Below are positions 14,706-63,204 of a stretch of 64,000 bases of DNA, piece after piece (the first letter of the stretch is position 1; the number at the start of each line of letters is the position of its first letter). A program made the position numbers and the translations under genes. This DNA comes from Mobula hypostoma (taxonomy: Eukaryota): positions 156,304,001-156,368,000 of the forward strand of contig NC_086097.1 of the NCBI RefSeq assembly GCF_963921235.1, written 5' to 3'. The notes below the pieces were generated by a model. It did no database searches and was not told the origin of the DNA. It worked only from the letters and a program-made list of their open reading frames with translations.

Positions 14706-14995
14706 AGTTCTGATGAAGGGTCACATAGTGAACCTGAAATTTTTACTGATTCTCATTCCACAGACATTTACTGACCTGTTGTGGTTTTCAACATTTTCTC
14801 TTCTTATTTCCGACCTCTGGTTCTTTACTTATCTTTGCCACTGTAATGTCTTTACAACTTCTCAAACTAATTGAAAAGATGCTGATGCTGGTAATCTGAA
14901 ACAAAACTAGATATGCTGTAGATAATCATCATTTAGGGAGCACCTGTGAAGAGAAACTGAGTTAATATTTCAGGTTAATAATCTGTCATTAGAGC
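14706..14995. mobile_element. Two old, oppositely oriented Penelope family A terminal-repeat remnants
   Basis: CTGATGAAGGGTC...CCTGAAAT on + at 14710; GATGCTGGTAATCTGAAAC...TTTCAGGT reverse copy at ~14878-14995. Confidence 0.5.
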
Positions 14996-16004: not shown

Positions 16005-16300
16005 ATCTTTTCCACTCTGGATCCCCTCTTCCTTTTCTCTTCTCCTCACCTACTTATCACCATCCCCTGATGCCCCTCCTCCTTCCCTTTCTCCCATGGT
16101 CCACTCTCTTCTCCCATTCATTCTCTACCGGCTATTACCTCCAAGCTCCTTACTTCATCCCTCTGCAAAACCTACCCAATGAAGGGTCTCACCCGAAACT
16201 TTGACTGTTTATCCATTTCCATAGATGCTGCCTGGCCTGCTGAGGTCCTCCAGCATTTTGAGTAGGTTGCTTGGATTTCCAGCATCGGCAGATTTTCTCT
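16005..16300 (+). mobile_element. Penelope family A 3' region (pyrimidine tract plus terminal repeat)
   Basis: C/T-rich tract then ATGAAGGGTCTCACCCGAAACTTTGACTG...GATGCTGCCTGGCCTGCTGAG. Confidence 0.75.
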
Positions 16301-23542: not shown

Positions 23543-23920
23543 CATAAGACCATAAGACAAAGGAGCAGAAGTAGGTCATTCAGCCCATCGAGTCTGCTCC
23601 GACATTTTATCATGAACTGATCCATTTTATCCTATTTAGTCCCACTGCCCCGCCTTCTCACCATAACCTTTGATGCCCTGGTTACTCAGATACCTATCAA
23701 TCTCTGCCTTAAATACACCCAATGACTTGGCCTCCACTGCTGCCCGTGGCAACAAATTCCATAGATTCATCACCCTCTGACTAAAAAAATTTTTTCGCGT
23801 TTCTGTTCTGAAAGGGCGCCCTTCAATCCTGAAGTCATGCCCTCTCGTACTAGACTCCCCCATCATGGGAAACAACTTTGCCACATCCACTCTGTCCATG
23901 CCTTTTAACATTCGCTTTAA
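23543..23920 (-). mobile_element. Young CR1 3' fragment nested in the older CR1
   Basis: Near-identical to 54285-54668; (CCATAAGA)n tail; CAAAC duplicated at 23538-23542 / 23921-23925. Confidence 0.9.
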
Positions 23921-24074: not shown

Positions 24075-24272
24075 AACAACAAGAATTCTGCAGGTGCTGT
24101 AAATTCAAGCAACACGCATCAAAGTTGCTGGTGAACGCAGCAGGCCAGGCAGCATCTCTAGGAAGAGGTACAGTCGAGCCCTGACAAAGGGTCTCGGCCT
24201 GAAACGTTGACTGTACTTCTTCCTAGAGATGCTGCCTGGCCTACTGCATTCACCAGCAACTTTGATGTGTGT
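24075..24272. mobile_element. Palindromic Penelope family A mini-element with hammerhead in the loop
   Basis: 69-bp inverted arms 24109-24177 / 24207-24275 (64/69); 14-bp TSD TGCCTTATAAGGCT (24061-24074 / 24273-24286). Confidence 0.88.
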
Positions 24273-25277
24273 TGCCTTATAAGGCTTCTGCAATGAATTC
24301 CTGCTTTTGTATTTTAGTCCTCTCAAAATGAATGCTAACATTGCATTTGGCTTCCCTACCACTGACACAACCTGAAAGTTAATCTTTAGGGAATCCTGCA
24401 CAAGGACTCCCAAATCACTATACACCTCAGAATTTTGAAATTTCTCCCCACTTAGAAAATAGTCTATGCTTGTATTGTTCCAACAAAGTGCATGATCATG
24501 TGCTTCTCTGCACTATATTCCCTCTTTGCACATTCTCTCTATCTGTCTTTCCTCCTGCTCCCTCAACATTATCTCCCTCTCCACCTATCCTTGTACCATC
24601 CGAAAACTTATCTATAAAGCCATTGGTTCTTTCTTCCAAATCATTGACCCCTGTGGCACACCACTAGTCACTGGCAGGCAACCAAAAAAGGCCTGCTTTA
24701 TTCCCACTCTTTGCCTCCCGCCAGTCAGCCAATCTTCCATCCATTCTGTATTACCATAGATTCTTATCTTGTTAAGCAGCCTCATGCTTAACAATCCAAA
24801 TAAACAACACCGACTGACTCCCCTTTGTCTATCCTGCCTGTTGTTTCTTCATAGGATTCCAACAAATTTTCCCTTAAGGAAGCCATGCTGACATTGGCCT
24901 ATTTTTTTCATGTGCTGCCAAGTAATCCGAAATCTCATCCTTAATAATAGACTTCAACATCTTTCCAACCACTAAAGTCAGGCTAACTGGCCTATAATTT
25001 CCTTTCTTCTGCTGCCGCACCTTCTTGTAGAATAGAGTGACTTTTTCCATATTCCAGTCCTTTGGAACCATTACATAATTTAGTAATTCTTCAAAGATAA
25101 TTACTAATTCTTCCACAATATATTCAGCTTCCTCTTTCAGAACGCTGGAGTTTAGTCCATTTGGTCCAGGTCATTTATTCACCGTCAGACTTTTCAGCTT
25201 TCCAAGCACCTTCACCTTAGTAATAGTAACGGCACTCACATTTATCCCCTGAGATTCATGTTTCTGACATTCTGTAA

Positions 25278-28200
25278 GTGTCTTCCACATTGAGGATGAA
25301 CACAAAATACTTATTAAGTATATACGTAAATGATGCTGGAGAAGTGGTTCCTCCATTATCATCTCTCCAATATCATTTTCCAGTGGTCCAATGTCCACTT
25401 TCATTTTCTTTTACTCTTTATATATTTGAAAAACATTTTTGTATCCTATTTCATAACCAGTGCAGAGAGACAGAGGGGTGTAAAGTGAGCGTAGAAGCAA
25501 AAAGTACAAAGGGGAAAAGTAAAAGTGGCAGGCCGACAAATCCAGGGCAAGCATTAAAAAGGGCTAAGAGAGTTGTAAAAGAGCGCCTGAAGGCTTTATG
25601 TGTCAATGCAAGGAGCATTCGTAATAAGGTGGATCAATTGAAAGTGCAGATTGTTATTAATGATTATGATATAGTTGGGATCACAGAGACATGGCTCCAG
25701 GGTGACCAGGGATGGGAGCTCAACGTTCAGGGATATTCAATATTCAGGAGGGATAGACACGAAGGAAGGGGAGGTGGGGTGGCGTTGCTGGTTAAAAAAG
25801 AGATTAACGCAATAGAAAGGAAGGACATAAGCCGGGAAGATGTGGAATCGATATGGGTAGAGCTGCGTAACACTAAGGGGCAGAAGACGCTGGTGGGAGT
25901 TGTGTACAGGCCACCTAACAGTAGTAGTGAGGTCGGAGATGGTATTAAACAGGAAATTAGAAATGTGTGCAATAAAGGAACAGCAGTTATAATGGGTGAC
26001 TTCAATCTACATGTAGACTGGGTGAACCAAATTGGTAAAGGTGCTGAGGAAGAGGATTTCTTGGAATGTATGCGGGATGGTTTTTTGAACCAACATGTCG
26101 AGGAACCGACTAGAGAGCAGGCTATTCTGGACTGGGTTTTGAGCAATGAGGAAGGGTTAATTAGCGATCTTGTCGTGAGAGGCCCCTTGGGTAAGAGTGA
26201 CCATAATATGGTGGAATTCTTCATTAACATGGAGAGTGACGTAGTTAATTCAGAAACAAAGGTTCTGAACTTAAAGAGGGGTAACTTTGAAGGTATGAGA
26301 CGTGAATTAGCTAAGATAGACTGGCAAATGACACTTCAAGGATTGACGGTGGATATGCAATGGCAGGCATTTAAAGGTTGCATGGATGAACTACAACAAT
26401 TGTTCATCCCAGTTTGGCAAAAGAATAAATCAAGGAAGGTAGTGCACCCGTGGCTGACAAGAGAAATTAGGGATAGTATCAATTCCAAAGAAGTAGCATA
26501 CAAATTAGCCAGAGAAAGTGGCTCACCTGAGGAATGGGAGAAATTCAGAGTTCAGCAGAGGAGGACAAAGGGCTTAATTAGGAAGGGGAAAAAAGATTAT
26601 GAGAGAAAACTGGCAGAGAACATAAAAACGGACTGTAAAAGCTTTTATAGATATGTAAAAAGGAAAAGACTGATAAAGACAAATGTAGGTCCCCTGCAAA
26701 CAGAAACAGGTGAATTGATTATGGGGAGCAAGGACATGGCAGACCAATTGAATAATTACTTTGGTTCTGTCTTCACTAAGGAGGACATAAATAATCTTCC
26801 AGAAATAGTAAGGGACAGAGGGTCCAGTGAGATGGAGGAACTGAGCGAAATACATGTTAATAGGGAAGTGGTGTTAGGTAAATTGAAGGGATTGAAGGCA
26901 GATAAATCCCCAGGGCCAGATGGTCTGCATCCCAGAGTGCTTAAGGAAGTGACCCAAGAAATAGTGGATGCATTAGTGATAATTTTTCAAAACTCGTTAG
27001 ATTCTGGACTAGTTCCTGAGGATTGGAGGGTGGCTAATGTAACCCCACTTTTTAAAAAAGGAGGGAGAGAGAAACCGGGGAATTATAGGCCGGTTAGCCT
27101 AACGTCGGTGGTGGGGAAACTGCTGGAGTCAGTTATCAAGGATGTGATAACAGCACATTTGGAAAGCGGTGAAATGATCGGACAAAGTCAGCATGGATTT
27201 GTGAAAGGAAAATCATGTCTGACGAATCTCATAGAATTTTTTGAGGATGTAACTAGTAGAGTGGATAGGGGAGAACCAGTGGATGTGGTATATTTGGATT
27301 TTCAAAAGGCTTTTGACAAGGTCCCACACAGGAGATTAGTGTGCAAACTTAAAGCACACGGTATTGGGGGTAAGGTATTGGTGTGGGTGGAGAATTGGTT
27401 AGCAGACAGGAAGCAAAGAGTGGGAATAAACGGGACCTTTTCAGAATGGCAGGCGGTGACTAGTGGGGTACCGCAAGGCTCAGTGCTGGGACCCCAGTTG
27501 TTTACAATATATATTAATGACTTGGATGAGGGAATTAAATGCAGCATCTCCAAGTTTGCGGATGACACGAAGCTGGGTGGCAGTGTTAGCAGTGAGGAGG
27601 ATGCTAAGAGGATGCAGGGTGACTTGGATAGGTTGGTTGAGTGGGCAAACTCATGGCAGATGCAATTTAATGTGGATAAATGTGAAGTTATCCACTTTGG
27701 TGGCAAAAATAGGAAAACAGATTATTATCTGAATGGTGGCCGATTAGGAAAAGGGGAGGTGCAACGAGACCTGGGTGTCATTATACACCAGTCATTGAAA
27801 GTGGGCATGCAGGTACAGCAGGCGGTGAAAAAGGCGAACGGTATGCTGGCATTTATAGCGAGAGGATTCGAGTACAGGAGCAGGGAGGTACTACTGCAGT
27901 TGTACAAGGCCTTGGTGAGACCACACCTGGAGTATTGTGTGCAGTTTTGGTCCCCTAATCTGAGGAAAGACATCTTTGCCATAGAGGGAGTACAAAGAAG
28001 GTTCACCAGATTGATTCCTGGGATGGCAGGTCTTTCATATGAAGAAAGACTGGATGAACTGGGCTTGTACTCGTTGGAATTTAGAAGATTGAGGGGGGAT
28101 CTGGTTGAAACGTATAAGATCCTAAAGGGATTGGACAGGCTAGATGCGGGAAGATTGTTCCCGATGTTGGGGAGGTCTAGAACGAGGGGTCACAGTTTGA

Positions 28201-28388
28201 GGATAGAGGGGAAGCCTTTTAGGACCGAGGTTAGGAAAAACTTCTTCACACAGAGAGTGGTGAATCTGTGGAATTCTCTGCCACAGCAAACTGTTGAGGC
28301 CAGTTCATTAGCTATGTTTAAAAGGAAGTTAGATATGGCCCTTGTGGCTACAGGGGTCAGGGGGTATGGAGGGAAGGCTGGGTTCTGA
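25278..28388 (+). CDS. CR1 ORF2 APE endonuclease-reverse transcriptase (first ~60 codons come from the flanking antisense CR1)
   Basis: VNARSIRNK, GITETW, YRPPNS, MGDFN, SDHN (APE); NYRPVSLTS, QHGF, YLDFQKAFDKV, GVPQGSVLGP, FADD (RT); no stops over 1036 codons. Confidence 0.93.
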   Translation: MSSTLRMNTKYLLSIYVNDAGEVVPPLSSLQYHFPVVQCPLSFSFTLYIFEKHFCILFHNQCRETEGCKVSVEAKSTKGKSKSGRPTNPGQALKRAKRVVKERLKALCVNARSIRNKVDQLKVQIVINDYDIVGITETWLQGDQGWELNVQGYSIFRRDRHEGRGGGVALLVKKEINAIERKDISREDVESIWVELRNTKGQKTLVGVVYRPPNSSSEVGDGIKQEIRNVCNKGTAVIMGDFNLHVDWVNQIGKGAEEEDFLECMRDGFLNQHVEEPTREQAILDWVLSNEEGLISDLVVRGPLGKSDHNMVEFFINMESDVVNSETKVLNLKRGNFEGMRRELAKIDWQMTLQGLTVDMQWQAFKGCMDELQQLFIPVWQKNKSRKVVHPWLTREIRDSINSKEVAYKLARESGSPEEWEKFRVQQRRTKGLIRKGKKDYERKLAENIKTDCKSFYRYVKRKRLIKTNVGPLQTETGELIMGSKDMADQLNNYFGSVFTKEDINNLPEIVRDRGSSEMEELSEIHVNREVVLGKLKGLKADKSPGPDGLHPRVLKEVTQEIVDALVIIFQNSLDSGLVPEDWRVANVTPLFKKGGREKPGNYRPVSLTSVVGKLLESVIKDVITAHLESGEMIGQSQHGFVKGKSCLTNLIEFFEDVTSRVDRGEPVDVVYLDFQKAFDKVPHRRLVCKLKAHGIGGKVLVWVENWLADRKQRVGINGTFSEWQAVTSGVPQGSVLGPQLFTIYINDLDEGIKCSISKFADDTKLGGSVSSEEDAKRMQGDLDRLVEWANSWQMQFNVDKCEVIHFGGKNRKTDYYLNGGRLGKGEVQRDLGVIIHQSLKVGMQVQQAVKKANGMLAFIARGFEYRSREVLLQLYKALVRPHLEYCVQFWSPNLRKDIFAIEGVQRRFTRLIPGMAGLSYEERLDELGLYSLEFRRLRGDLVETYKILKGLDRLDAGRLFPMLGRSRTRGHSLRIEGKPFRTEVRKNFFTQRVVNLWNSLPQQTVEASSLAMFKRKLDMALVATGVRGYGGKAGF

Positions 28389-29799: not shown

Positions 29800-30805
29800 T
29801 TACACAATGGCCGTTCCCACAATGTTTGCTGTGCTTACTGCTTGTCATCTCCAACAGGATCCCACCACCAAGAACATCTTTCCCTCCTCTCATTTTTTTG
29901 CTTTCTGCAAGGATGGCTCCCTACAGGATTCCCTTGTCCATTGGCCCCTCCCCACTGATCTCCCTCCTGGCACTTATCCTTGCAAGCAGAACAAGTGCTA
30001 CACCTCCTTCCTCACTACCATTTAGGGCCCCAAACAGTCTTTCCAGGTGAGGCGACACTTCACCTGTGGGTCTTTTGGGGCTGTATACAGTGTCCGGTGC
30101 TCCCAGTGTAGCCTCCTGTATATCAATGAGTCCCAACGTAGATTGGGAGACCTCTTCACCAACCACCTATGCTCCATTTGATGGAAGTGGGATCTTCCAG
30201 TGGCCACCCATTTTAATTCCACTTCCCATACCTATTCCAATATGTCAATCCAAGGATCCACGGCCTCCTCCACTGTCGTGTTGAGGCCACACTCAGGTTA
30301 GAGGAACAACGCCTTATAGGTGTATTCCATCTGGGTAGCCTCCAACCTGATGGCATGAGCATCGATTTCTTGAACTTCTGGTAATGCCCCATCCTCCTTC
30401 TTCACCAGTCCCCATCCCCTTTTCCCCCCTCACCTTATCTTCTTGTCTGCCCATCACTTCCTTCTAGTGCTTCTCCCCCCTTTTCTTTCTCCTATGGCCT
30501 TCTGTCTTCTCGTATTTGATTCCCCCTTTTCCAACTCTGAATCTCTTTCACCAATTACATTCCTAGCTCTTTACTCCATCCCTCCCCTTCCCTGTTTCAC
30601 CTATCACCTTGTGTTTCTCTCTCCCCTCCCCCTAAACTTTTAAGGCTACTCCTCATCGTTTTTTTTTCCAGTCCTGCCGAAGGGTCTCGGCTGGAAATGT
30701 CAACTGTACTTTTTTCCATAGATGTTGCCTGGCCTGCTGAGTTCCTCCAGCATTTTGTGTGAGTTGCTTGGAATTCCAGCATCTGCAGATTTTCTTTTGT
30801 CTGTG
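29800..30805 (+). mobile_element. Penelope family A 3' portion (GIY-YIG endonuclease remnant plus terminal repeat)
   Basis: PPGTYPCK..KCYT..GPKQSFQVRRHFTC...VYSVRCSQCSLLYINESQRRLGD; terminal repeat with decayed hammerhead at 30674. Confidence 0.85.
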
Positions 30806-48155: not shown

Positions 48156-49306
48156 ATTGTTATATATCTGTTGATTGGGTAACACTTCTAAAATAAAGTC
48201 AAGCAGACTGATTTAGTTCTAGCAGTTGATTGCTATAAACATGGTTAATTCAAAACAATTTTTGATTATCAATTGGCTAACTTTGGTATATTGGGAATAA
48301 TTTCTCTGAAAAGGAATTTAAGCACAGAATGCAGAAAATAAGGGAAATGGATTAAAGATAAACTATAGCAAGAAATAATATGAATGGAAATGTCATAATT
48401 ACATTTTAAAATTTAAAACGGTTAACACAATCTATAAAGAATGGAAAAAATATAAAGTCATAGAAAATAATGACAATGCAAGTTAATCTATAATGGTAAA
48501 ATTCACTGGAACCTTTTTGGTCTCCTATCAAAGATTAGGAGGATGAATTGTTTATGAAGTATAGTTACAATTGTTCGAAGTACAAATTTAAATATCAATC
48601 CCTATAAAAATATTATGGTGTGTTTCCCTTAATTTGTGTTCACTGGTTTCTATTTGGACAGTTGTGAAACTTTCCCGATAGTCACTAAAATAAAAGCAAA
48701 TTTCTGTAGTCATTGAAACTTTGAAGTAAAAGACATAGTTGTGGAAATACTGGCAGATTAGGCTACACCTGTGAGCAGAGTAACAGTTAACATTTCAAAA
48801 TATCAATTTTCAATGTAACAATGAAAATTTAAATATAAATTTGTTTCAAATGTAGAAAAAGGAGAGAATGCAGGAGAGAACAGGATGGTTTAAAGGTTTG
48901 GAGTAGAGCAAATTATGACAGCATTCGGCATGAACTAAGAAGCATTAATTGGGAATGCCTTTTCTTTGACAAGTCCACATCAGACATGTGGAGGGTGTTT
49001 AAAGATCAATTGCACAAAGTACAGGAAGTATTGGGCCTCCTAATGAGTACTAAGGTGGATAACTTCCCAGGGCCTGATGGGATTTACCCCAAGTTATTGA
49101 AGGAGGCAAGAGACAAGATTGGTGGGCCCTTGACCACTATCTTAGTGTCCTGGAAGACTAACAAGTGGCTAATATTGTACCTCTGTTTAAGAAGGGAACA
49201 AAGGCAGATCCTGGATACTATAAACCTGTGCGTCTAAAGTCAATGGGAGGGAAATTGCTGGAGAAAATTTTTAAGAATTAGATAAATGAGCATTTTGAAA
49301 CCCATG

Positions 49307-49412
49307 CAACACACATCAAAGTTGCTGGTGAATGCAGCAGGCCAGGCAGCATCTCTAGGAAGAGGTACAGTAGACGTTTCAGGCCGAGACCCATCGTCAG
49401 GACACTTTGACC
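49307..49412 (-). mobile_element. Penelope family A solo terminal repeat with hammerhead core
   Basis: Reverse complement CTGACGA-T-GGG-TCTCGG-CCT-GAAA-CG-TC; ACCCATG repeated at 49300-49306 / 49413-49419. Confidence 0.8.
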
Positions 49413-53491: not shown

Positions 53492-54668
53492 GAGCCACAC
53501 ATGAGGCTACTTAACAAGATAAGAGCCCATGGAATTATAGGAAAGTTACATACGTGGATAGAGCGTTGGCTGATTGGCAGGAAACAGAGAGTGGGAATAA
53601 AGGGATCCTGTTCTGGTTGGCTGCCGGTTACCAGTTGTGTTCCACAGGGGTCCGTGTTGGGGCCGCTTCTTTTTACATTGTACATCAACGATCTGGATTA
53701 TGGAACAGATGGCTTTGTGGCTAAGTTTGCTGATGATACGAAGATAGGTGGAGGGGCTGGTAGTGCTGAGGAAACGGAGAGTCTGCAGAGAGACTTGGAT
53801 AGAATGGAAGAATGGGCAGAGAAGTGGCAAATGAAGTACAATGTTGGAAAGTGTATGGTTATGCACTTTGGCAGAAAAAATAAATGGGCAGACTATTATT
53901 TAAATGGGGAAAGAATTCAAAGATCTGAGATGCAACGGGACTTGGGAGTCCTCGTACAGGATTCCCTTAAAGTTAACCTCCAGGTTGAGTCAGTAGTGAA
54001 GAAGGTGAATGCAATGTTGGCATTCATTTCTAGAGGAATAGAGTATAGGAGCAGGGATGTGATGTTGAGGCTATATAAGGCGCTGGTGAGACCTCACTTG
54101 GAGTACTGTGGGCAGTTTTGGTCTCCTTATTTAAGAAAGGATGTGCTGACGTTGGAGAGGGCACACAGAAAATTCACAAGAATGATTCCGGGAATGAGAG
54201 GGTTAACATATGAGGAACGTTTGTCCGCTCTTGGACTGTATTCCTTGGAGTTTAGAAGAATGAGGGGGGACCTCATAGAAATATTTCGAATGTTAAAAGG
54301 CATGGACAGAGTGGATGTGGCAAAGTTGTTTCCCATGATGGGGGAGTCTAGTACGAGAGGGCATGACTTCAGGATTGAAGGGCGCCCTTTCAGAACAGAA
54401 ATGCGAAGAAATTTTTTTGGTCAGAGGGTGGTGAATCTATGGAATTTGTTGCCATGGGCAGCAGTGGAGGCCAAGTCATTGGGCGTATTTAAGGCAGAGA
54501 TTGATAGGTATCTGAGTAGCCAGGGCATCAAAGGTTATGGTGAGAAGGCGGGGCAGTGGGACTAAATAGGATAAAATGGATCAGCTCATGATATTTGGCG
54601 CAGCAGACTCGATGGGCCGAATGGTCTACTTCTGCTCCTTTGTCTTATGGTCTTATGGTCTTATGGTC
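53492..54668 (+). mobile_element. Young 5'-truncated CR1 (open RT C-terminal half, 53501-54565)
   Basis: VPQGSVLGP, KFADDTKIGG, LVRPHLEYC; (TCTTATGG)3 tail; TSD TAAAAT (53486-53491 / 54669-54674). Confidence 0.95.
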
Positions 54669-55043: not shown

Positions 55044-56141
55044 TGTCATGGTCTGGTCCATGAAGTCCGTATTCCGGTTCACGGTCCAGTTCATCGACCC
55101 TTGCTTCAGGTTTTCCTATCTACCCTGTTTCTGTTCTTGTTGAGCTAATTGAGGCAGCTGATGCTCGTTGGGGCTGGCTGCATAAATACCTTCAGAGACC
55201 CAGGCATGGCTGCTGGATTGTTCTTGTCCTTACTCCTTGTATCCCTTGCTCTGCCTTCTGTTTCCTTGCCTGAAGCCTTGCCTTGTCTTACCGGTAACTC
55301 TCACCTTGCCTGAAGTTCTCGTCTCGCCTTGCTCTGCCAGAAGCCTTGCCTTGTCTTGCTGGTACCTCTCGCCTCATCTCGCCTGCAGTCTTGTCCTGGA
55401 GCCACCCTGTACCTAGCTCCCTTCCTGTCCCTTGCCTCCGTCCAGGTAAGCCAGGCCGTCTTGCCGTTACCTGGGGTTGGTTCTGTCCCTTCCTGTCCCT
55501 TGCCTCTGTCGGGTGATGATCTGCACCCTGCCCAGGAGGAGCCTGCCAAGCCTCACCTCAATCTCCAACCAAGGCTCGCCTCAAGTCTCCTGCCTCCTGC
55601 CTCCAGCCTCGCCTCGCCTCAAGTCTCCAGCCTCCAGCCTCGCCTCAAGTCTCCAGCCTCCAGCCTCGCCTCGCCTCAAGTCTCCAGCCTCCAGCCTCGT
55701 CTCAAGTCTCCAGCCTCCAGCCTCGCCTCAAGTCTCAAGTCTCAAGTCTCCTGCCTAGCCTTGCCTCGTCTCTTGCCTAGCCTTGCCTCGTCTCTTGCCT
55801 AGCCTCGCCCCGTCTCTTGCCTAGCCTCTGGCCTGAAGACTCCAGCCTCTAGCCTCTAGCCTCAAGCCTGAAGATTCCAGCCTCGTCCTGCCTGCCTGCC
55901 AAGCCTCGTGCTTGCCTAGTTCTGAGGTCCGAGCCAGAGGCAAGACCCAGGTACTGGGTCCTTGTCCAGTCTCTGGCTTGGAGTCCAAGCCTGGGCTCCT
56001 AGCCCTCTTGTCTAGTCCTGTTCCAGGTTCCTGGTTTTGCTGTCCATGTCCTTGCCATCACCCTGTATCCTAGTCCTGTCCCTAGTACTTCAGTGTCTGT
56101 GTCTTGCACTTGGGTCCGTTCCCAGCCACCACCCTATGACA
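55044..56141 (+). mobile_element. Solo LTR inserted in the 3' LTR of Gypsy 2
   Basis: TGTCAT...ATGACA termini, 5-bp TSD ATACT (55039-55043 / 56142-56146), TATA-like CATAAATA ~55181. Confidence 0.88.
55575..55885 (+). repeat. Imperfect tandem array (CCTCAAGTCTCCAGCCTCCAGCCTCG and CTTGCCTAGC units) inside the solo LTR
   Basis: Directly visible repeated 26-31-bp units. Confidence 0.9.
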
Positions 56142-57926
56142 ATACTTCATCAAACTATATACAGTACACACAAAATTACTCAAATATTATTGAAATATTA
56201 AACACACAACACTCCTTACTGCTTAACTATAAACTCCAAATCAACATAGAATGCATCTCAACTATATACACAGTATACTATCTAATACAACTACTATATA
56301 CTGTACAGACATCCACAGCGTGGTAAGTTTAAATTGTTCCATTCAGGCTTAAAGATTTAATCACTGTGGAGGATTTCTTACTTCTGTGGAAAATCGTTTT
56401 TCCTGGTAGAGGGGAATACTCTGTTTGACACACGAGACTTGGAGTCGACTGAAACTGCAGGAAGTAATTCTGATAACAGTAGCCAACTTTCATCCTTATC
56501 AATTGACTCTGCTCTCCTCAACTGATTGATGTGGCATCTCCAGATGATATCAGATGCAATCACCACTGTGTAGGAAAGTGGTCCAGTTGTGTTCTTAATC
56601 TTTCCACGAACCCACTTTTGACCACCTCAGTAACCCTCACCAGGACTTCTTGTCCAGGAGTGAAAGACTGAACCTCCTTGTTTGGGGAGACTTCAATCTG
56701 TCTCAGTTGTTGTCCTGCATGGTTGAAGATGTAATATGTCTTATATCATTTATTTTTAGGAATGATTGAAACTATTTCCCCACAATGGTCCTTTGTTACT
56801 GACTAATGTTCTGGAACAGAAGTCCTTGTGAAGAGGCTTTTCAGTACATCAAGAGTGTACAATGCTATCGTGTAGTCTATTGGGAACACTTCTGGGTACG
56901 TCCACTATTACTATGAAAGCGTGCTTATGAATGGTCTGGCAAAATCCATATGAATCCTCTGTCAGGGCAACGCAGGGCATTCCCAGGCAATGGAGGGATG
57001 CTACTCTTGGCATCTTCTGGACATGTTGGCATATCATTCAGTGCATGGCAAGTTGTTAAATCTGCTGATCTATCCCAGGTCACCAGACAAACATTCAAGC
57101 CAATGCTTTCATTTTAACCAAGTCTGGCTGATTAGCATGTAGCTCCTCCAACAATTTAGCTCTCGGCTTGGATGGTACAGCAACTCTCAATCCCAACATA
57201 AGGCAACTTCTGTCAAGGGCAAGTTTAATTTGGCACTGGTGAAAATAGGAAACTGGAGTTTCTATTGTGCATTGCAGCCATTTTGAGTGGCCATGTAGAA
57301 CTGAGCCAGCATCCGGACTTTTCTGGTTTCCTTTTGGATCAGCCCTGCTGTAAGACAGAGACTTTCAATTTGCATAGGAAAGAGTAAGTAAAGAGGAGTG
57401 TCTTTTTCAGTAATTTTTTTCTGGTACTTTCTTTTCCAAGGGTAAACAGGACAATCCATCATCATTTCCATAATTAGTCATTCTCTTGAATTGAATTTTG
57501 TATTTGTGTCCTCCAAGATACAGAGCCCATCTCTACATTCATGTTGCCCTTCCGTGGAATGAAAATGGACACTGGTGGCTGATGATCAGTAATAAGGGTA
57601 AACTCTTTCCCATATAAGTATTGGTTAAAATGTTTTATATGCCTAACTAGACTCAAGTCCTCCCTGTCAATCTGCAGTGGTAGGGAAACATGATGCAAAG
57701 GTTGTAGGGCATTCACTTCCATCACTAATAACATGTGAAATGACTCTAACCTATACGATAAGGTGAGGCATCACAGGGAAGCTTCATTGGACGATGTGAA
57801 TCACAATGTGTCTGTAAAGTGTCTGATGTCACCACTGCCTTTACCTTTTGGAAAGCCACCTTACATTGCCATGCCTTTTGCCTTTCCTTCCCGATCTATA
57901 GTAACACATTCAAGGAGTGAAGAGTA

Positions 57927-58835
57927 GTTCAAAGTATAATTATCCAAGTATGTATAAATAGTACAACTTTGAGATTCGTCTGTTTATAGGCAGCCACAAA
58001 ACAAGAAACCCAAAAGAACCCAACTTAAAGAAAAACACTCCCAATGGGGAGGGAGGGAGAGAGGGAGAGAGAAAGGAAAATACACAAATCACATAACCAA
58101 TAAGAGGAAGCAACAGCATTCAGAACAAAGTGAGTCTACAGCCCCCAGCATCTGGAGCAGTCAGAGTAGGCCCATAGCCTCATTCTCAGTTCATTACACA
58201 ATGAGAGAAATCTCCATGAAGCTCACAGACACAAAGCACAGAGCAGCTGGAGCAGTCTTAACAAGCTCAGTGCCACGGAGAGAGGAGGAAAGGTTGTAGA
58301 AGAGCTAGTAAAACCAGCCTCATCCTCACCTCCAGTCCCAACACCTTGCCCTTCCAGTCTATCTGGGCCAGCATTTAAATTGTCCAAACACCAGGTTATT
58401 GCCCACACAGGCCTCACTGCAGTGATATGTTCTAGGCCTGTACTCCACCACCCAGCCCATGGCTGTACTCGACCTTTCCAAATTGGCTCAGCACCTAGAT
58501 CGATCCAACCTCGTTCCTGGTTCAGGTGGATGGGCTCCGAAACTCCTCCACTCTGACTCCTCACTGATTCGTGCACTCCAACTCCATCTGCAACTCCAAA
58601 TCTGTCTTGAACATGCCTCGTCCTCACTTCTTCTCAAACGTGCCACGCTTTGACTTTGCATCGCACCCTCAAGTCAGCCTCGTCTTTGCTCACCTCTTCA
58701 TTGTTTGTGGTAATAGTGTACCATAATTTACCACATAAAAAGTCTTATTAATAAAGTATTTAGTCATATTTCTTGACTTAAGAACCACCAGTCAGCTGTC
58801 ACCCAATTTCAGTAGCACCATTTTAAACTGTAAGT
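57927..58835 (-). mobile_element. Second copy of AAGATG-headed family 1, nested in Gypsy 2 pol
   Basis: Ends resemble 16564-17497 (CAAAGT..ATTATC.AAGTATGTATA; CCACCAG...TTCA..AGCA.CAT.TTAAAC). Confidence 0.6.
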
Positions 58836-60465
58836 ACAGAGCCTGACAGTAGCCAGGTTTGGCAGGAACCTGTACAAGTGATTGACAAATCCTAAAAAAG
58901 GGCTGCAACTGTGATACCTCCTTTAACCTTGGGGCATCCACTGTTTGAATTTTCTCAGCAGACTGATGTAATCATTGTGCATCAACCATGTGATCACAAT
59001 AAGTGATGCTTGGTTTAAAGAATCCACACTGGTCTCGTCATGCTCTGAGCCCATGATCTTCTGATCATTTTTACACTCTCTTGAGTTTTGGAGATGTCCC
59101 TTGTCATCCTTACTGGTATAATGATGTCATCCAGGTAACACTAGGTGCCTGGGCATCCTTACAGCATCTGGTCCATAACTTTCTGCAGAGAGCAGGTGTA
59201 GATGCGACTCCAAAAATAATTGTAGTGATAAAGCCCTTTGCCATTCTTTATGGTGAGAAACACTTTAGACTCTTCTTCCATCTCCATCTGAAAGCAGGCC
59301 TCAGCTTAGTCCACTTTGCTAAAGTGTTTTCCTTCAGAAAAGTTTGCAACAATATTCTCTATCCTGAGCTGAGGGTCTTAATCTATTAGAGTACTGAGTT
59401 GATGGTAACCTTAAAATCACCCACAGATCCTGACAGACCATCCTTCGTGGCTATGGACTACTGGCTTTGTCCATGGGCTCCACTCAACCTTGAAAAGAAT
59501 TTCTTCAGCCTCCATACGATCTTGCTCAAAGGCTACCTCAACATAGATAGTATAAGGAACTGGACAGGCTTGCGAAAAATTTGTGCAGAATTTTCATTTA
59601 ACACAATTTTACTTTGGATATGTTTGAATTTTCCAATGCCATTCTTGAACACTGCTGTGGCATCATCCAGTATCTTTCTTAAATTGCTTTCATATGGCAT
59701 CATTGCAGGGGATCTGGCATGTAAATGGTGAATGCATCTCAATCAAATTGTCGTCTCAGCCAGTCATGCCCCCACAATCCTAGCCCTCCTATTTTTCCCA
59801 TATGCAAACTCAATCTGGCTTGTTGTTTGGTGTATTTCACTGTTATGAATGTCATTCCCATAAGAGTTACCTTCTTTATTACTGTTTAGGTTCTTAGATA
59901 GATACCTGCAGGCTTCAGTTTAGTATCTTTGAAATGCCATTCAAACTCATTTTGTGGAATGACTGAAAAAGCTGTACCGGTGTCTAATTTCATTTTAATT
60001 AAATTGCCATTCATTTCTGGCATAAGCTATATTGTTTGTCTATTTAAAAACGCAAACCCGAGGAAATCTTCAGATGCTGGAAATTCAAGCAACACACACA
60101 AAATGCTGGTGGAATGCAGTAGGCCTGGCAGCATCTATAGGAAGAAGCACAGTTGACGTTTTGGGCCGAGACCGTTCGTCAGGACTAACTGAAAGAAGAG
60201 ATAGTAAGAGATTTGAAGAGATTTGAAAGTGGGAGGGGGTGGGGGAGATCTGAAATGATAGGAGAAGACAGGAGGGGGAGGGATGAAGCTAAAAGCTGGA
60301 AAGCAGATTGGCAAAAGGGATACAGAGTTGGAGAAAGGGGAGGATCATGAGACAGGAGGCCTGGGGAGAAAGAATGGGGGAGGGGAGCACCAGAGGAAGA
60401 TGGAGAGCAAGCAAGGAGTATTGTGAGAGGGACAGAGAAAAAAGGGAGAGAAAATAAAGGGGGAG

Positions 60466-60467
60466 AA

Positions 60468-60510
<43 letters not shown>
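60466..60510 (+). repeat. (AAAT)n microsatellite
   Basis: Perfect tetranucleotide run. Confidence 0.95.
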
Positions 60511-61267
60511 GGGATGGGGTAAGAAGGAGAGGAGGGGCATTAACGGAAGTTTGAGAAGTCAATGTTCATGCCATCAGGCTGGAGGCTACCCAGATGGAAT
60601 ATAAGGTGGTGTTCCTCCAACCTGAGTGTGGCTTCACCTTGACAGTACAGGAGGACATGGATAGACATATCAGAATGGGAATGGGACGTGGAATTAAAAT
60701 GTGTGGCCACTGGGAGACCATGCTTTCTCTGGCAGACAGAACGTAGGTGTTCAGCGAAACGGTCTCCCAGTTGTGTCAGACATTTTAATTCTATGTCCCA
60801 TTCCCATTCTGATGTGTCAGTCCATGTCCTCCTCTACTGTAAAGATGAAGTCACACTCAGGTTGGAGGAACAACACCTTATATTCCGTCTGGGTAGCCTC
60901 TAACCTGATGGCATGAACATTGACTTCTCTAACTTCCGCTAATGCCCCTCCTCCCCTTGTTACCCCATCCCTTCCTCATTTATTTATTTATTTTTCCTTT
61001 TTTTTCCCTTTCTCTCTTTTTTCTCTCTCTGTCCCTCTCACAATACTCCTTGCCTGCTCTCCATCTTTCTCTGGTGCTACCCTCCCCCTTTCTTTTTCCG
61101 CAGGCCTCTCGTCCCCAGATCCTCTCCCTTCTCCAGCTCTATCTCCCTTTTGCCAATCACCTGTCCAGCTCTTGGCCTCATCCCTCCCCCTCCTGTCTTC
61201 TCCTATCATTTTGGATCTCCCCCTCCCCCTCCCACTTTCAAATCTCTTACTATCTCTTCCTTCAGTT

Positions 61268-61303
61268 AGTCCTGACGAAGGGTCTCAGCCCGAAACGTCG
61301 ACT
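61268..61303 (+). ncRNA. Minimal type I hammerhead ribozyme motif (intact core)
   Basis: AGTC-CTGACGA-A-GGG-TCTCAG-CCC-GAAA-CG-TC-GACT: stem I AGUC/GACU, stem II GGG/CCC, palindromic ACGU stem III; predicted cut after C61299. Confidence 0.8.
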
Positions 61304-61767
61304 GTACTTCTTCCTATAGATGCTGTCTGGCCTGCTGTGTTCACCAGCATTTTGTGTGTGTTGCTTGTCTATTGTTAATTTTCAGACTATAAATCTCAAG
61401 GCTGCACAGTCCTATGTCACGATCATCATTATCAGATCTTTCATCAACAGCATGCAGATTAGTGTCCTTTTTCAAACTGCAACTTTACTTTTTACCTTTA
61501 ACTCTTCCTTGTGCAGTCCATTTGTTTTTGTCTGCTTGACATGCTTTTTGTATGTTGCATTTTCTGCAAGTTTCCCCTTTAAATCTGCATTTATTTGGTG
61601 TATGCGAGCCCCTGCCACAACTGTAGCACACTTTGTTGGCCAGGCTGGTTTCTGTTTAGTTGATGCTCATTCTCATGTTCATTTCAACTCAATTGCATCT
61701 CTGTCTCTGATTTCCTTTGAAACAGCAAGTTCTGTTGCCGTTTTGAATATAAGTTGTGTTTCAGTTA

Positions 61768-61910
61768 TGATCAGTGTCTACTTTCATTGATGAAGGGTCT
61801 CGGCCAGAAATGTTGACTGTTTACTCTTTTTCATAGATGCTGCCTGGCCTGCTGAGTTCCTCCAGCATGTTGTCTTGCTTGGATTTTCAGCATCTGCAGA
61901 TTTTCTCATC
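61768..61910 (+). mobile_element. Penelope family A solo terminal repeat in Gypsy 2 gag
   Basis: TTGATGAAGGGTCTCGGCCAGAAATGTTGACTG...; 8-bp TSD TTCAGTTA (61760-61767 / 61911-61918); removal rejoins gag IQKQFLTE/TQLIFK. Confidence 0.85.
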
Positions 61911-63204
61911 TTCAGTTAAGAACTGCTTTTGAATGCTTTCTCTTACGATTACACAAACTAAATGATCTCCTAGTGTACCATTAAGTCCATTATTGAACTG
62001 ACAAACCTCAGACATGGCCTCTCCTTCTTTTTATGCTACTTATAAAAACTAAAACATTCTGCAATCAACAATGGCTTAGGTACTAAGTGAGCATCAATGT
62101 TACAATAGCAGCAGAGCTCATTTATGTTGGATTGGCTGGAGCAGTCAAATTTCGAAGTAATCTGTATACCTTTAAACCAAATGAACGCATCAAAGTTGAT
62201 ACTCGCTTCTCATTGGCTATTTCATTTTTTTCAAGATACTGTTCCAATAGTTCAGTATACATGAGACAAATACTTGTTGTGTAATCTAACTCGCCAGTCT
62301 TTCCAATGTAACCACTCATTTCTGATGTTTTCTTAATGGCTATTATCACCCAATACTCACTCCTGATGAACCTATGAATTCCTCCATTTCCTGCCCTTGT
62401 TTAAATTTGAACATGTCTTCCCCTCCAAAGAAAATATCCTGCTCTCTTTCGCCGTTCCTTGCTGTTCTGTTTCTTTTAACTTGAATGTCTCACTGCATTT
62501 AAACTGATCAGTAACCATCTCAGGTTCATTTAAAAAATACCTCGTATGCAATGTTATGTTTTGTAACTTCCAAACTGAATCTGAAATGTGGTCTAACTTT
62601 GAGTTTACTTTAAGCAAGATGTGCACATATCACATGGTAGCGTGATGACATATCTAATTTTATATATATAATTACTCAAATATTGAAATATTAAATGCAC
62701 CACATGCTTTAATCCATGTCACTTGCTGGATGCTGACAAACTACTTTTCTTCACTTCTTGGTGTCTCTCGAGCCCAGCCAACAACTGTCAAGTTTACATA
62801 TTGTCACCTTATGTAAATTGAGCTATCTGCAGTCACTAGATCAACTCTAATAGCAGAATTGTATTGACAGAGCTATATTTCCAAGTTCTCCCTTTTTCCA
62901 AGCAATTCCGAACTTTCAACTAGGTCCAATTTAATATAAAGTACAAGTATGATTTTGTATTCATACATTATACACATCAGCAAATCCAAAAACATTGAGT
63001 GACAATGCCATCGATTCTGAAAAGGAATCACAAGAAATATTCATTGAATCAAATGCCCCTTCATCAGTAAAGTTCAGACTTGTGAGACGGAAGGTAGCCA
63101 AGATGTGCATTCTGAATGTGACTGCAAAATTTCAAGATATTGCAGATACATAACTATATTGTAGATAAATCCAGTACAGACAATTCTTCTATCATTTGCA
63201 ATAT

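What the first reader, a model, noticed from the sequence alone, without database searches (positions are those of the whole stretch)
61268..61303. Intact minimal hammerhead ribozyme in the terminal repeat of the commonest Penelope family
Seen: AGTC CTGACGA A GGG TCTCAG CCC GAAA CG TC GACT supplies every conserved hammerhead core base (CUGANGA, GAAA, UH), a 4-bp stem I, a 3-bp stem II and a loopless palindromic ACGU stem III. Known: Penelope-like elements carry such minimal type I hammerheads, which are thought to need dimerisation through the palindromic stem III. Homologous motifs sit at 14710, 16176, 24181, 30674, 49372-49400 (-), 60151-60186 (-) and 61788. Several differ by CpG-type decay (CG to CA or TG). 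Inference: this genome carries roughly one ribozyme-derived motif per 8 kb from this family alone.
Basis: partly seen in the sequence, partly recalled or inferred. Interest (0 to 1): 0.8.

Follow-up and report, generated by a model that had tools for sequence, protein, structure and literature searches.

The report
Minimal hammerhead in dead Penelope copy
These 36 bases are a complete copy of the small self-cutting RNA motif already known from Penelope-type jumping genes, sitting in a broken, folded-back copy where it likely does little; the kind is ordinary, but the family is very abundant and its short copies tend to begin at the motif's outer edge, not where it would cut.

Summary
Confirmed. 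61268-61303 holds every base of the minimal type I hammerhead described for Penelope-like elements (PMC4209133), and is the only intact one of eight such motifs in the window. It lies in the pseudo-LTR of one arm of a 1.3-kb fold-back insertion with a 9-bp target duplication; the twin motif has decayed. Full-length relatives carry two motifs about 3.5 kb apart around an RT + Cys-linker + GIY-YIG frame, Neptune-type. A random 880 kb gives about 590,000 related copies and about 55,000 intact motifs. No cleavage footprint: 0.8% of copies begin at the cut site against 5.6% at the first bases of stem I. That pile-up is rarer in near-full-length copies (3 of 39 against 15 of 56). A 310-nt tandem unit, where dimers could form, inserted twice independently. 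Cleavage is untested. The scan found this family and the stem-I pile-up before on other DNA of this genome (124 notes fit). New member of a known kind.

The parts
61268..61303 (+). Minimal type I hammerhead motif, all core bases present; predicted cut after C61299
   Evidence: compared with PMC4209133
60045..61364 (.). One head-to-head fold-back Penelope-like insertion; arms 89.5% identical (526 of 588)
60777..61364 (+). Right arm: end of GIY-YIG frame (premature stop 60901-03, natural stop 60940-42), pyrimidine-rich 3' UTR, hammerhead, 3' end 65 nt past the cut site
60045..60776 (-). Left, inverted arm: end of GIY-YIG frame (60543-60776), 3' UTR, decayed hammerhead, longer 3' end carrying the roughly 40-nt tail
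60151..60186 (-). Twin motif of the same insertion; G12 and the first base after the cut site changed to A
60036..60044 (+). Target-site duplication, left copy (9 bp)
61365..61373 (+). Target-site duplication, right copy (9 bp)
61262..61272 (+). Two overlapping initiator-like words with candidate +1 at A61264 and A61268, matching the two clusters of 5' ends; also reads as a 3' splice site; inferred, consensus recalled
   Evidence: sequence; 5'-end histogram
61788..61910 (+). Separate short insertion of an older subfamily; C3, the 5' strand of stem I and the stem III palindrome are lost, so it is no dimer partner
14706..14750 (+). Decayed motif of a more distant family with a longer stem II
16176..16298 (+). 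Decayed short copy, 5' part of the core lost
24101..24275 (.). Mini fold-back: inverted arm starting near the cut site plus a direct arm with a damaged core (G8>A)
30670..30795 (+). Decayed motif at the 3' end of a longer copy of an older subfamily (ORF remnants 29846-30378)
49298..49403 (-). Short copy starting at stem I; core bases kept, closing pair of stem I broken

Best explanation
This is a complete minimal type I hammerhead motif in the pseudo-LTR of a dead, 5'-truncated fold-back copy of a Penelope-like retrotransposon, likely of the Neptune clade, and at this locus it is likely a silent passenger that escaped mutation by chance. Shown: the motif, the insertion anatomy, the parent element, neutral decay of copies, and that copies were reverse-transcribed from RNA running unbroken through the cut site. 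Inferred for the active family: the motif cuts slowly and only as a double hammerhead, probably with help from the element's protein. The two halves come from the pseudo-LTRs 3.5 kb apart or from short tandems, and the cut releases unit-length RNA that is either re-ligated or not used as a template. Reverse transcription primes internally 65-105 nt past the cut site. Short copies most likely run off an RNA 5' end at the first bases of stem I, a probable transcription start; near-full-length copies come from longer-than-unit templates (tandem read-through or circles).
For: Core and stems match the published min-HHR consensus. Parent: L081 has motifs 3,494 nt apart around a 1,036-codon frame with RVT_1 (E 8e-5) and GIY-YIG (E 0.002) matches and a CX4CX2C linker; L085 and L090 also have two motifs. 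Passenger: 9-bp TSD, arms 10.5% diverged, twin motif lost G12; 14 of 149 copies intact; core 240 of 253 against flank 272 of 276 bases unchanged in 23 long copies. Low activity predicted: the monomer folds with G5-G8 paired to the cleavage strand (-11.9 against -7.9 kcal/mol), and the double hammerhead lies 12 kcal/mol above the best dimer; a transcript through the whole insertion would meet its antisense arm. Published min-HHRs cut weakly or need protein (PMC4209133, PMC11167929). Uncut templates: 618 of 79,927 copies start at the cut site against 3,626 of 64,614 at stem I; 38 of 89 truncated arms start 37-28 nt upstream of the cut, 3 of 89 at it; 24 of 39 near-full-length copies run more than 370 nt past the 5' motif.
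Against: No cleavage, transcription or RNA end was observed; only assembled contigs were available. Both Pfam scores are below the curated cut-offs and no tree was built, so Neptune rests on the linker motif. No extra G (cap copy) precedes the stem-I starts (eye tally: G at 9 of 65), so the transcription-start step lacks direct support. No compensatory base changes were seen among the copies fetched, and the 10 long-ORF loci carry U at 11.1 instead of the conserved C, which could mean relaxed selection on catalysis. The contrast between long and short copies is modest (Fisher p 0.03 pooled, 0.06 against the random sample alone). Folding energies ignore tertiary contacts.
Confidence: 0.8

Rival explanations
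1. In this lineage the motif is no longer a working ribozyme; it persists as a structural or promoter element, and the 36-nt hairpin itself makes reverse transcriptase stop or switch template at its 5' foot.
For: The preferred fold is a long inactive hairpin ending at the same base where copies start; no cleavage footprint; C11.1>U in the long-ORF loci; snap-back junctions through stem I occur; HHR mutants do not affect TPRT in vitro and Naiads thrive without canonical HHRs (PMC11167929, PMC8557442).
Against: A template block should also stop long cDNAs, yet 3 of 39 stop there against 15 of 56 short ones; the cDNA hairpin is weak (about -5 kcal/mol); the core is kept between old and young subfamilies whose upstream flanks differ.
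Confidence: 0.25
2. The ribozyme cuts efficiently in vivo and this copy, or intact copies like it, cut host transcripts that run through them.
For: About 55,000 intact motifs (95% interval 30,000-93,000); starts at the first base after the cut outnumber starts one base later in the 100 listed matches (80 with G; eye tally); earlier scan notes e1-9822609 and e1-7790562 read this as a footprint.
Against: Of 30 such loci 19 are fold-back junctions, mostly on a 3-base microhomology, 4 are not truncations, 7 have unrelated flanks, and none shows a TSD. One such junction is no commoner than a matched control junction six bases on (24 against 18, p 0.44). This copy has no partner, and cores decay neutrally.
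Confidence: 0.1
3. The 5' pile-up reflects a 3' splice site (branch-point-like word, pyrimidine tract, AG) just before stem I, as with the intron that ends at helix I in Drosophila virilis Penelope.
For: The upstream sequence reads as a splice acceptor in both subfamilies (consensus recalled); D. virilis precedent (PMC4209133, PMC2377424).
Against: Copies starting at stem I show unrelated upstream sequence, and 8 of 20 non-inverted ones have the TSD directly abutting, so no upstream exon was copied (control 2 of 870). No GT..AG joint among the joints listed from four runs of contigs (weak, 21 joints not shown).
Confidence: 0.1

Closest known systems
Minimal hammerheads (min-HHR) of metazoan Penelope-like elements, Cervera and De la Pena 2014 (PMC4209133; read: main text parts 1-2 of 4, supplement file 2 part 2 of 3 plus search hits; file 1 not searchable)
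   Same: Type I, CUGANGA plus one extra base, G10.1-C11.1, palindromic loopless stem III, 4-bp stem I, place in the pseudo-LTR, mostly single dispersed copies, some inverted pairs.
   Different: Stem II is 4 bp, shorter than most listed. About 55,000 intact copies estimated against about 4,000 in coelacanth and 9,000 in Xenopus (different descriptors). The part of the alignment read lists no sequence identical to this one. Long-ORF copies here have G10.1.U11.1.
Poseidon element PAc of Anolis, Frangieh et al. 2024 (PMC11167929; read: parts 1-2 of 4)
   Same: Two internal 3' ends about 36-40 nt apart (tail); no sign of ends at the HHR cut site; a further group of 3' ends at +224 to +320, about 85-180 nt into the ORF, recalls PAc's start 111-118 nt into its ORF.
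   Different: In PAc the ORF starts inside the HHR; here the ATG lies about 138 nt past the cut site and the main 3' ends lie in the 5' UTR. The protein has a Cys linker (Neptune/Nematis type).
Neptune-clade EN+ PLEs as described in Craig et al. 2021 (PMC8557442; passages) and Arkhipova et al. 2013 (PMC3846280; passages)
   Same: RT, Cys linker, C-terminal GIY-YIG; partial tandems; adjacent inverted 5'-truncated copy; optional tail; TSDs of about 9 bp.
   Different: The passages read mention palindromes and Inr-like words in pseudo-LTRs but no count of 5' ends at the hammerhead's edge.
Non-LTR retrozymes as PLE derivatives (bioRxiv 10.64898/2026.07.22.740005; read: parts 1-3 of 5, supplements not seen)
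   Same: The 310-nt tandem unit at L370 and L437 is PLE-derived, has a motif in every unit and has moved; one chondrichthyan genome in that study holds such elements.
   Different: The flagged copy is not tandem and is no retrozyme; in that study 1 of 9 dimers cleaved.

Membership tests
Minimal type I hammerhead (min-HHR) | Core CUGANGA, GAAA, UH in type I order | tested here: met
Minimal type I hammerhead (min-HHR) | Stem I of 4-5 bp and stem II closed by G10.1-C11.1 after one unpaired base | tested here: met
   long-ORF relatives have G.U at that pair
Minimal type I hammerhead (min-HHR) | Palindromic 15.2-16.2 with no loop III | tested here: met
   61295-61298 is self-complementary
Minimal type I hammerhead (min-HHR) | Compensatory changes in the stems across families | tested here: inconclusive
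   168 distinct hits in 1.8 Mb were nearly all one lineage; no compensatory pairs seen
Minimal type I hammerhead (min-HHR) | Site-specific self-cleavage as dimer or with protein | not testable with these tools
   Folding predicts inactive traps; no genomic footprint
Rfam hammerhead families | Match to a curated covariance model | tested here: not met
   No hammerhead family among 3 matches at E up to 1
EN+ Penelope-like elements | Single ORF with RT and C-terminal GIY-YIG | tested here: met
   L081, 1,036 codons; RVT_1 and GIY-YIG matched below curated cut-offs; window arms hold only the C-terminus
EN+ Penelope-like elements | Pseudo-LTRs from partial tandems, inverted 5'-truncated partner, optional tail, TSD | tested here: met
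Neptune clade | Cys-rich CX2-5CxxC linker between RT and EN (shared with Nematis) | tested here: met
   CX4CX2C in L081; definition from PMC8557442
Neptune clade | RT phylogeny places it in Neptune | not tested
   No reference PLE proteins fetched, no tree built
Non-LTR retrozymes | Two or more consecutive tandem units each with a complete HHR | tested here: not met
   Not met at this locus; met at L370 (4 motifs) and L437 (2 motifs)

The most novel reading that the evidence does not exclude
The genome records a two-template life cycle. The element's RNA starts on the first base of its own hammerhead, giving tens of thousands of 100-140-nt ribozyme-only retrocopies, while full-length copies come from ribozyme-cut, re-ligated circles read more than once round; short tandem derivatives such as the 310-nt unit are newborn retrozymes using the same route.
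Probability: 0.25. Interest if true: 0.65.

Novelty: new member of a known kind. Interest (0 to 1): 0.3.

Why it matters
The motif class and its place in Penelope-like elements have been in print since 2014, so the flagged copy is ordinary. Its use is as material: what hammerheads do in EN+ Penelope elements is still called unclear (PMC8557442), and a family with hundreds of thousands of copies lets the question be put to the genome. The copies say that templates ran unbroken through the cut site and that short copies begin at the motif's edge, which points at specific RNA-end experiments. A young 310-nt tandem derivative that moved twice offers a natural dimer substrate.

Tried and rejected
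Rfam scan: no hammerhead family matched. Cleavage footprint in 5' ends: not found. One search was mis-indexed by one base and was not used as a truncation count; its loci served as an unbiased set of young copies and one search is the corrected search. Cap-copy G before stem-I starts: not seen (eye tally). Short copies as a separate self-propagating lineage: four diagnostic sites gave similar haplotype spectra in 174 short and 185 long copies (p 0.07), not supported. Core more conserved than flanks within the family: no (the flank was used to select long copies, which biases it upward). Expression: no RNA holder listed; four runs of contigs (X1, X2, X5, X6; RNA only guessed) could show neither starts nor level. 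Pfam gave nothing for the 78-residue window fragment and the PDB sequence search nothing for the full frame. A dimer partner at 61788 was rejected because its core is damaged. An alternative A-U register of stem II without the extra base is less stable in both forms. Paper searches listed no paper whose title or abstract start describes 5' ends clustering at the hammerhead's edge; only six papers were opened, in part, and subscription papers are not held, so this does not show it is unpublished. Rows to note: of 30 loci, 2 were long copies of an older subfamily and 1 inverted copy was scored as direct; the 89 arms include both arms of some insertions and several long copies with small indels.

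Full report
1. Observation. They give a 4-bp stem I, the core CUGACGA, one unpaired A, a 4-bp stem II with a 4-nt loop, GAAA, a loopless self-complementary stem III and C17 at 61299. The unpaired base and the G10.1-C11.1 pair belong to the published min-HHR consensus (PMC4209133). A strict descriptor finds this copy alone in the window, 14 in 880 kb of randomly placed genome stretches and 0 in the reversed control. Rfam reports no hammerhead family here. Positions below are counted from the first base after the predicted cut (0 = 61300).

2. The locus. The motif lies in the right arm of one fold-back insertion, 60045-61364, flanked by a 9-bp duplication. Each arm holds the end of a GIY-YIG frame, a pyrimidine-rich 3' UTR, the motif and a 3' end, at +65 in the right arm and about +105 in the left. 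The arms are 89.5% identical and the left motif has lost G12. The insertion interrupts a decayed LTR retroelement. The nearest same-strand motif, 61788, lacks C3 and the palindrome. So this copy has no dimer partner in the window, and a transcript crossing the whole insertion would pair it with its antisense arm.

3. The parent. A search with the arm's 78 residues returned frames up to 1,036 codons. L081 has a motif, then RT, a CX4CX2C linker and GIY-YIG, then a second motif 3,494 nt on; L085 and L090 are alike (Pfam scores below cut-off). The ATG lies about 138 nt past the cut site, and 3' ends cluster at about +65-70 and +101-107. This is the EN+ Penelope layout; the linker points to Neptune or Nematis (PMC8557442); no tree was built. 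Earlier scan notes call the host a cartilaginous fish; I did not test that.

4. Abundance and decay. 149 family copies in 880 kb extrapolate to about 590,000, and 14 intact motifs to about 55,000 (30,000-93,000) in 3.48 Gb; the sample came from ten large contigs only. Exact short words have 6,207 (31 bases), 64,614 and 84,671 matches. The family covers 4.7% of the sample. Within the young group the core is no better kept than the flank (240 of 253 against 272 of 276) and CpG sites decay fastest: dead copies drift. Between 29 young and 30 old copies the stretch -32 to +4 keeps its majority bases apart from N7 and one CpG site, while -36 to -33 and several sites from +9 to +15 differ; +18 to +42 is largely shared too, so the core is not uniquely conserved. 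No compensatory changes appeared among 168 distinct hits.

5. Does it cut? Not shown. The monomer's best fold pairs G5-G8 with the cleavage strand, 4 kcal/mol below the open form; the double hammerhead is 12 kcal/mol above the best dimer, and 17.5 above it in a natural tandem (secondary structure only). In print, a single min-HHR did not cut and dimers cut weakly (PMC4209133); the Anolis motif cut only with protein, was not needed for TPRT, and no RNA reads ended at its cut site (PMC11167929); 1 of 9 Xenopus retrozyme dimers cut. Because reverse transcription starts downstream of the motif, a cut linear template would leave copies beginning at 0. These are scarce: 618 of 79,927 (0.8%) against 3,626 of 64,614 (5.6%) beginning at -32/-31. 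Of 30 cut-site loci, 19 are fold-back junctions, 4 are not truncations, 7 have unrelated flanks and none has a TSD, against 8 of 20 non-inverted stem-I loci (control 2 of 870; Fisher p 0.07). Against this reading, 80 of 100 listed matches keep the G at 0 (eye tally), and two earlier notes took such starts as a footprint; a matched test of one junction gave 24 against 18, so microhomology suffices there. A small excess is not excluded.

6. Where copies begin. Among 89 arms selected for truncation between -51 and +9, 38 begin at -37 to -28 and 13 at -32/-31 (arms not all independent). TSDs abut these starts, so no upstream exon was copied, which weighs against splicing. Two initiator-like words place +1 at -36 and -32 (consensus recalled); D. 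virilis Penelope has an internal promoter in this region (PMC2377424). No cap-derived G is seen. Among 57 copies whose motif is followed by at least 600 nt of element, 39 reach -24; 3 of them stop by -41 (2 by script, 1 by inspection) and 24 run past -370; none of the 57 starts at the cut. Short-primed copies stop there in 15 of 56 cases (6 of 19; 9 of 37; p 0.03). A fixed block in the template, or a single start for all RNAs, fits this poorly; two template classes fit better: RNA beginning at stem I, and longer-than-unit RNA from tandems or circles, the latter as proposed in PMC4209133. Processivity differences between RT complexes could also produce the contrast.

7. Where dimers could form. 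L370 is one TSD-flanked insertion of four motifs 310 nt apart; the same unit recurs on another contig with its own flanks. This meets the retrozyme definition of the 2026 preprint; the flagged copy does not.

8. Verdict. A real, complete min-HHR motif in a dead Penelope-like copy; new member of a known kind; interest 0.3. The scan has flagged this family and the stem-I pile-up on other DNA of the same genome (124 notes fit, 8 shown); these are not independent support. New here relative to the notes shown: the long-against-short contrast and the twice-inserted tandem unit. Supplements not seen (file 1 of PMC4209133, those of the preprint) may list this family.

Noticed in passing
L370:2474-3739 (-) and L437:1494-1959 (+): The same 310-nt PLE-derived tandem unit, starting at the motif's 5' edge and with an intact motif in each unit, is inserted at two unlinked places with different flanks, target duplications and tail ends; its junction has 6 matches in the genome. 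A young retrozyme-like derivative.
   Followed up: partly
L081-L090; L085:3834-3869: All 10 long-ORF loci carry U instead of C at hammerhead position 11.1, turning the conserved G10.1-C11.1 pair into a wobble.
   Followed up: partly
L340-L432: A third group of 3' ends at about +224 to +320 from the cut site, inside the ORF start, in 23 of the 33 copies ending before +600.
   Followed up: no
window 25278-28388 (+): 1,036-codon open frame with APE endonuclease and RT domains, a LINE ORF2-type frame.
   Followed up: no
window 57474-62000 (-): Decayed Ty3/Gypsy-type element (zinc-knuckle, protease, RT and RNase H remnants; motifs recognised from recall, RNase H by Pfam) into which both the fold-back and the 61788 copy inserted.
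   Followed up: partly
window 23608-23914 and 54287-54593: 307-nt inverted pair, 97% complementary, 30 kb apart, part of a LINE-type repeat.
   Followed up: no
window 55549-55887: Tandem array of about 26-nt units.
   Followed up: no
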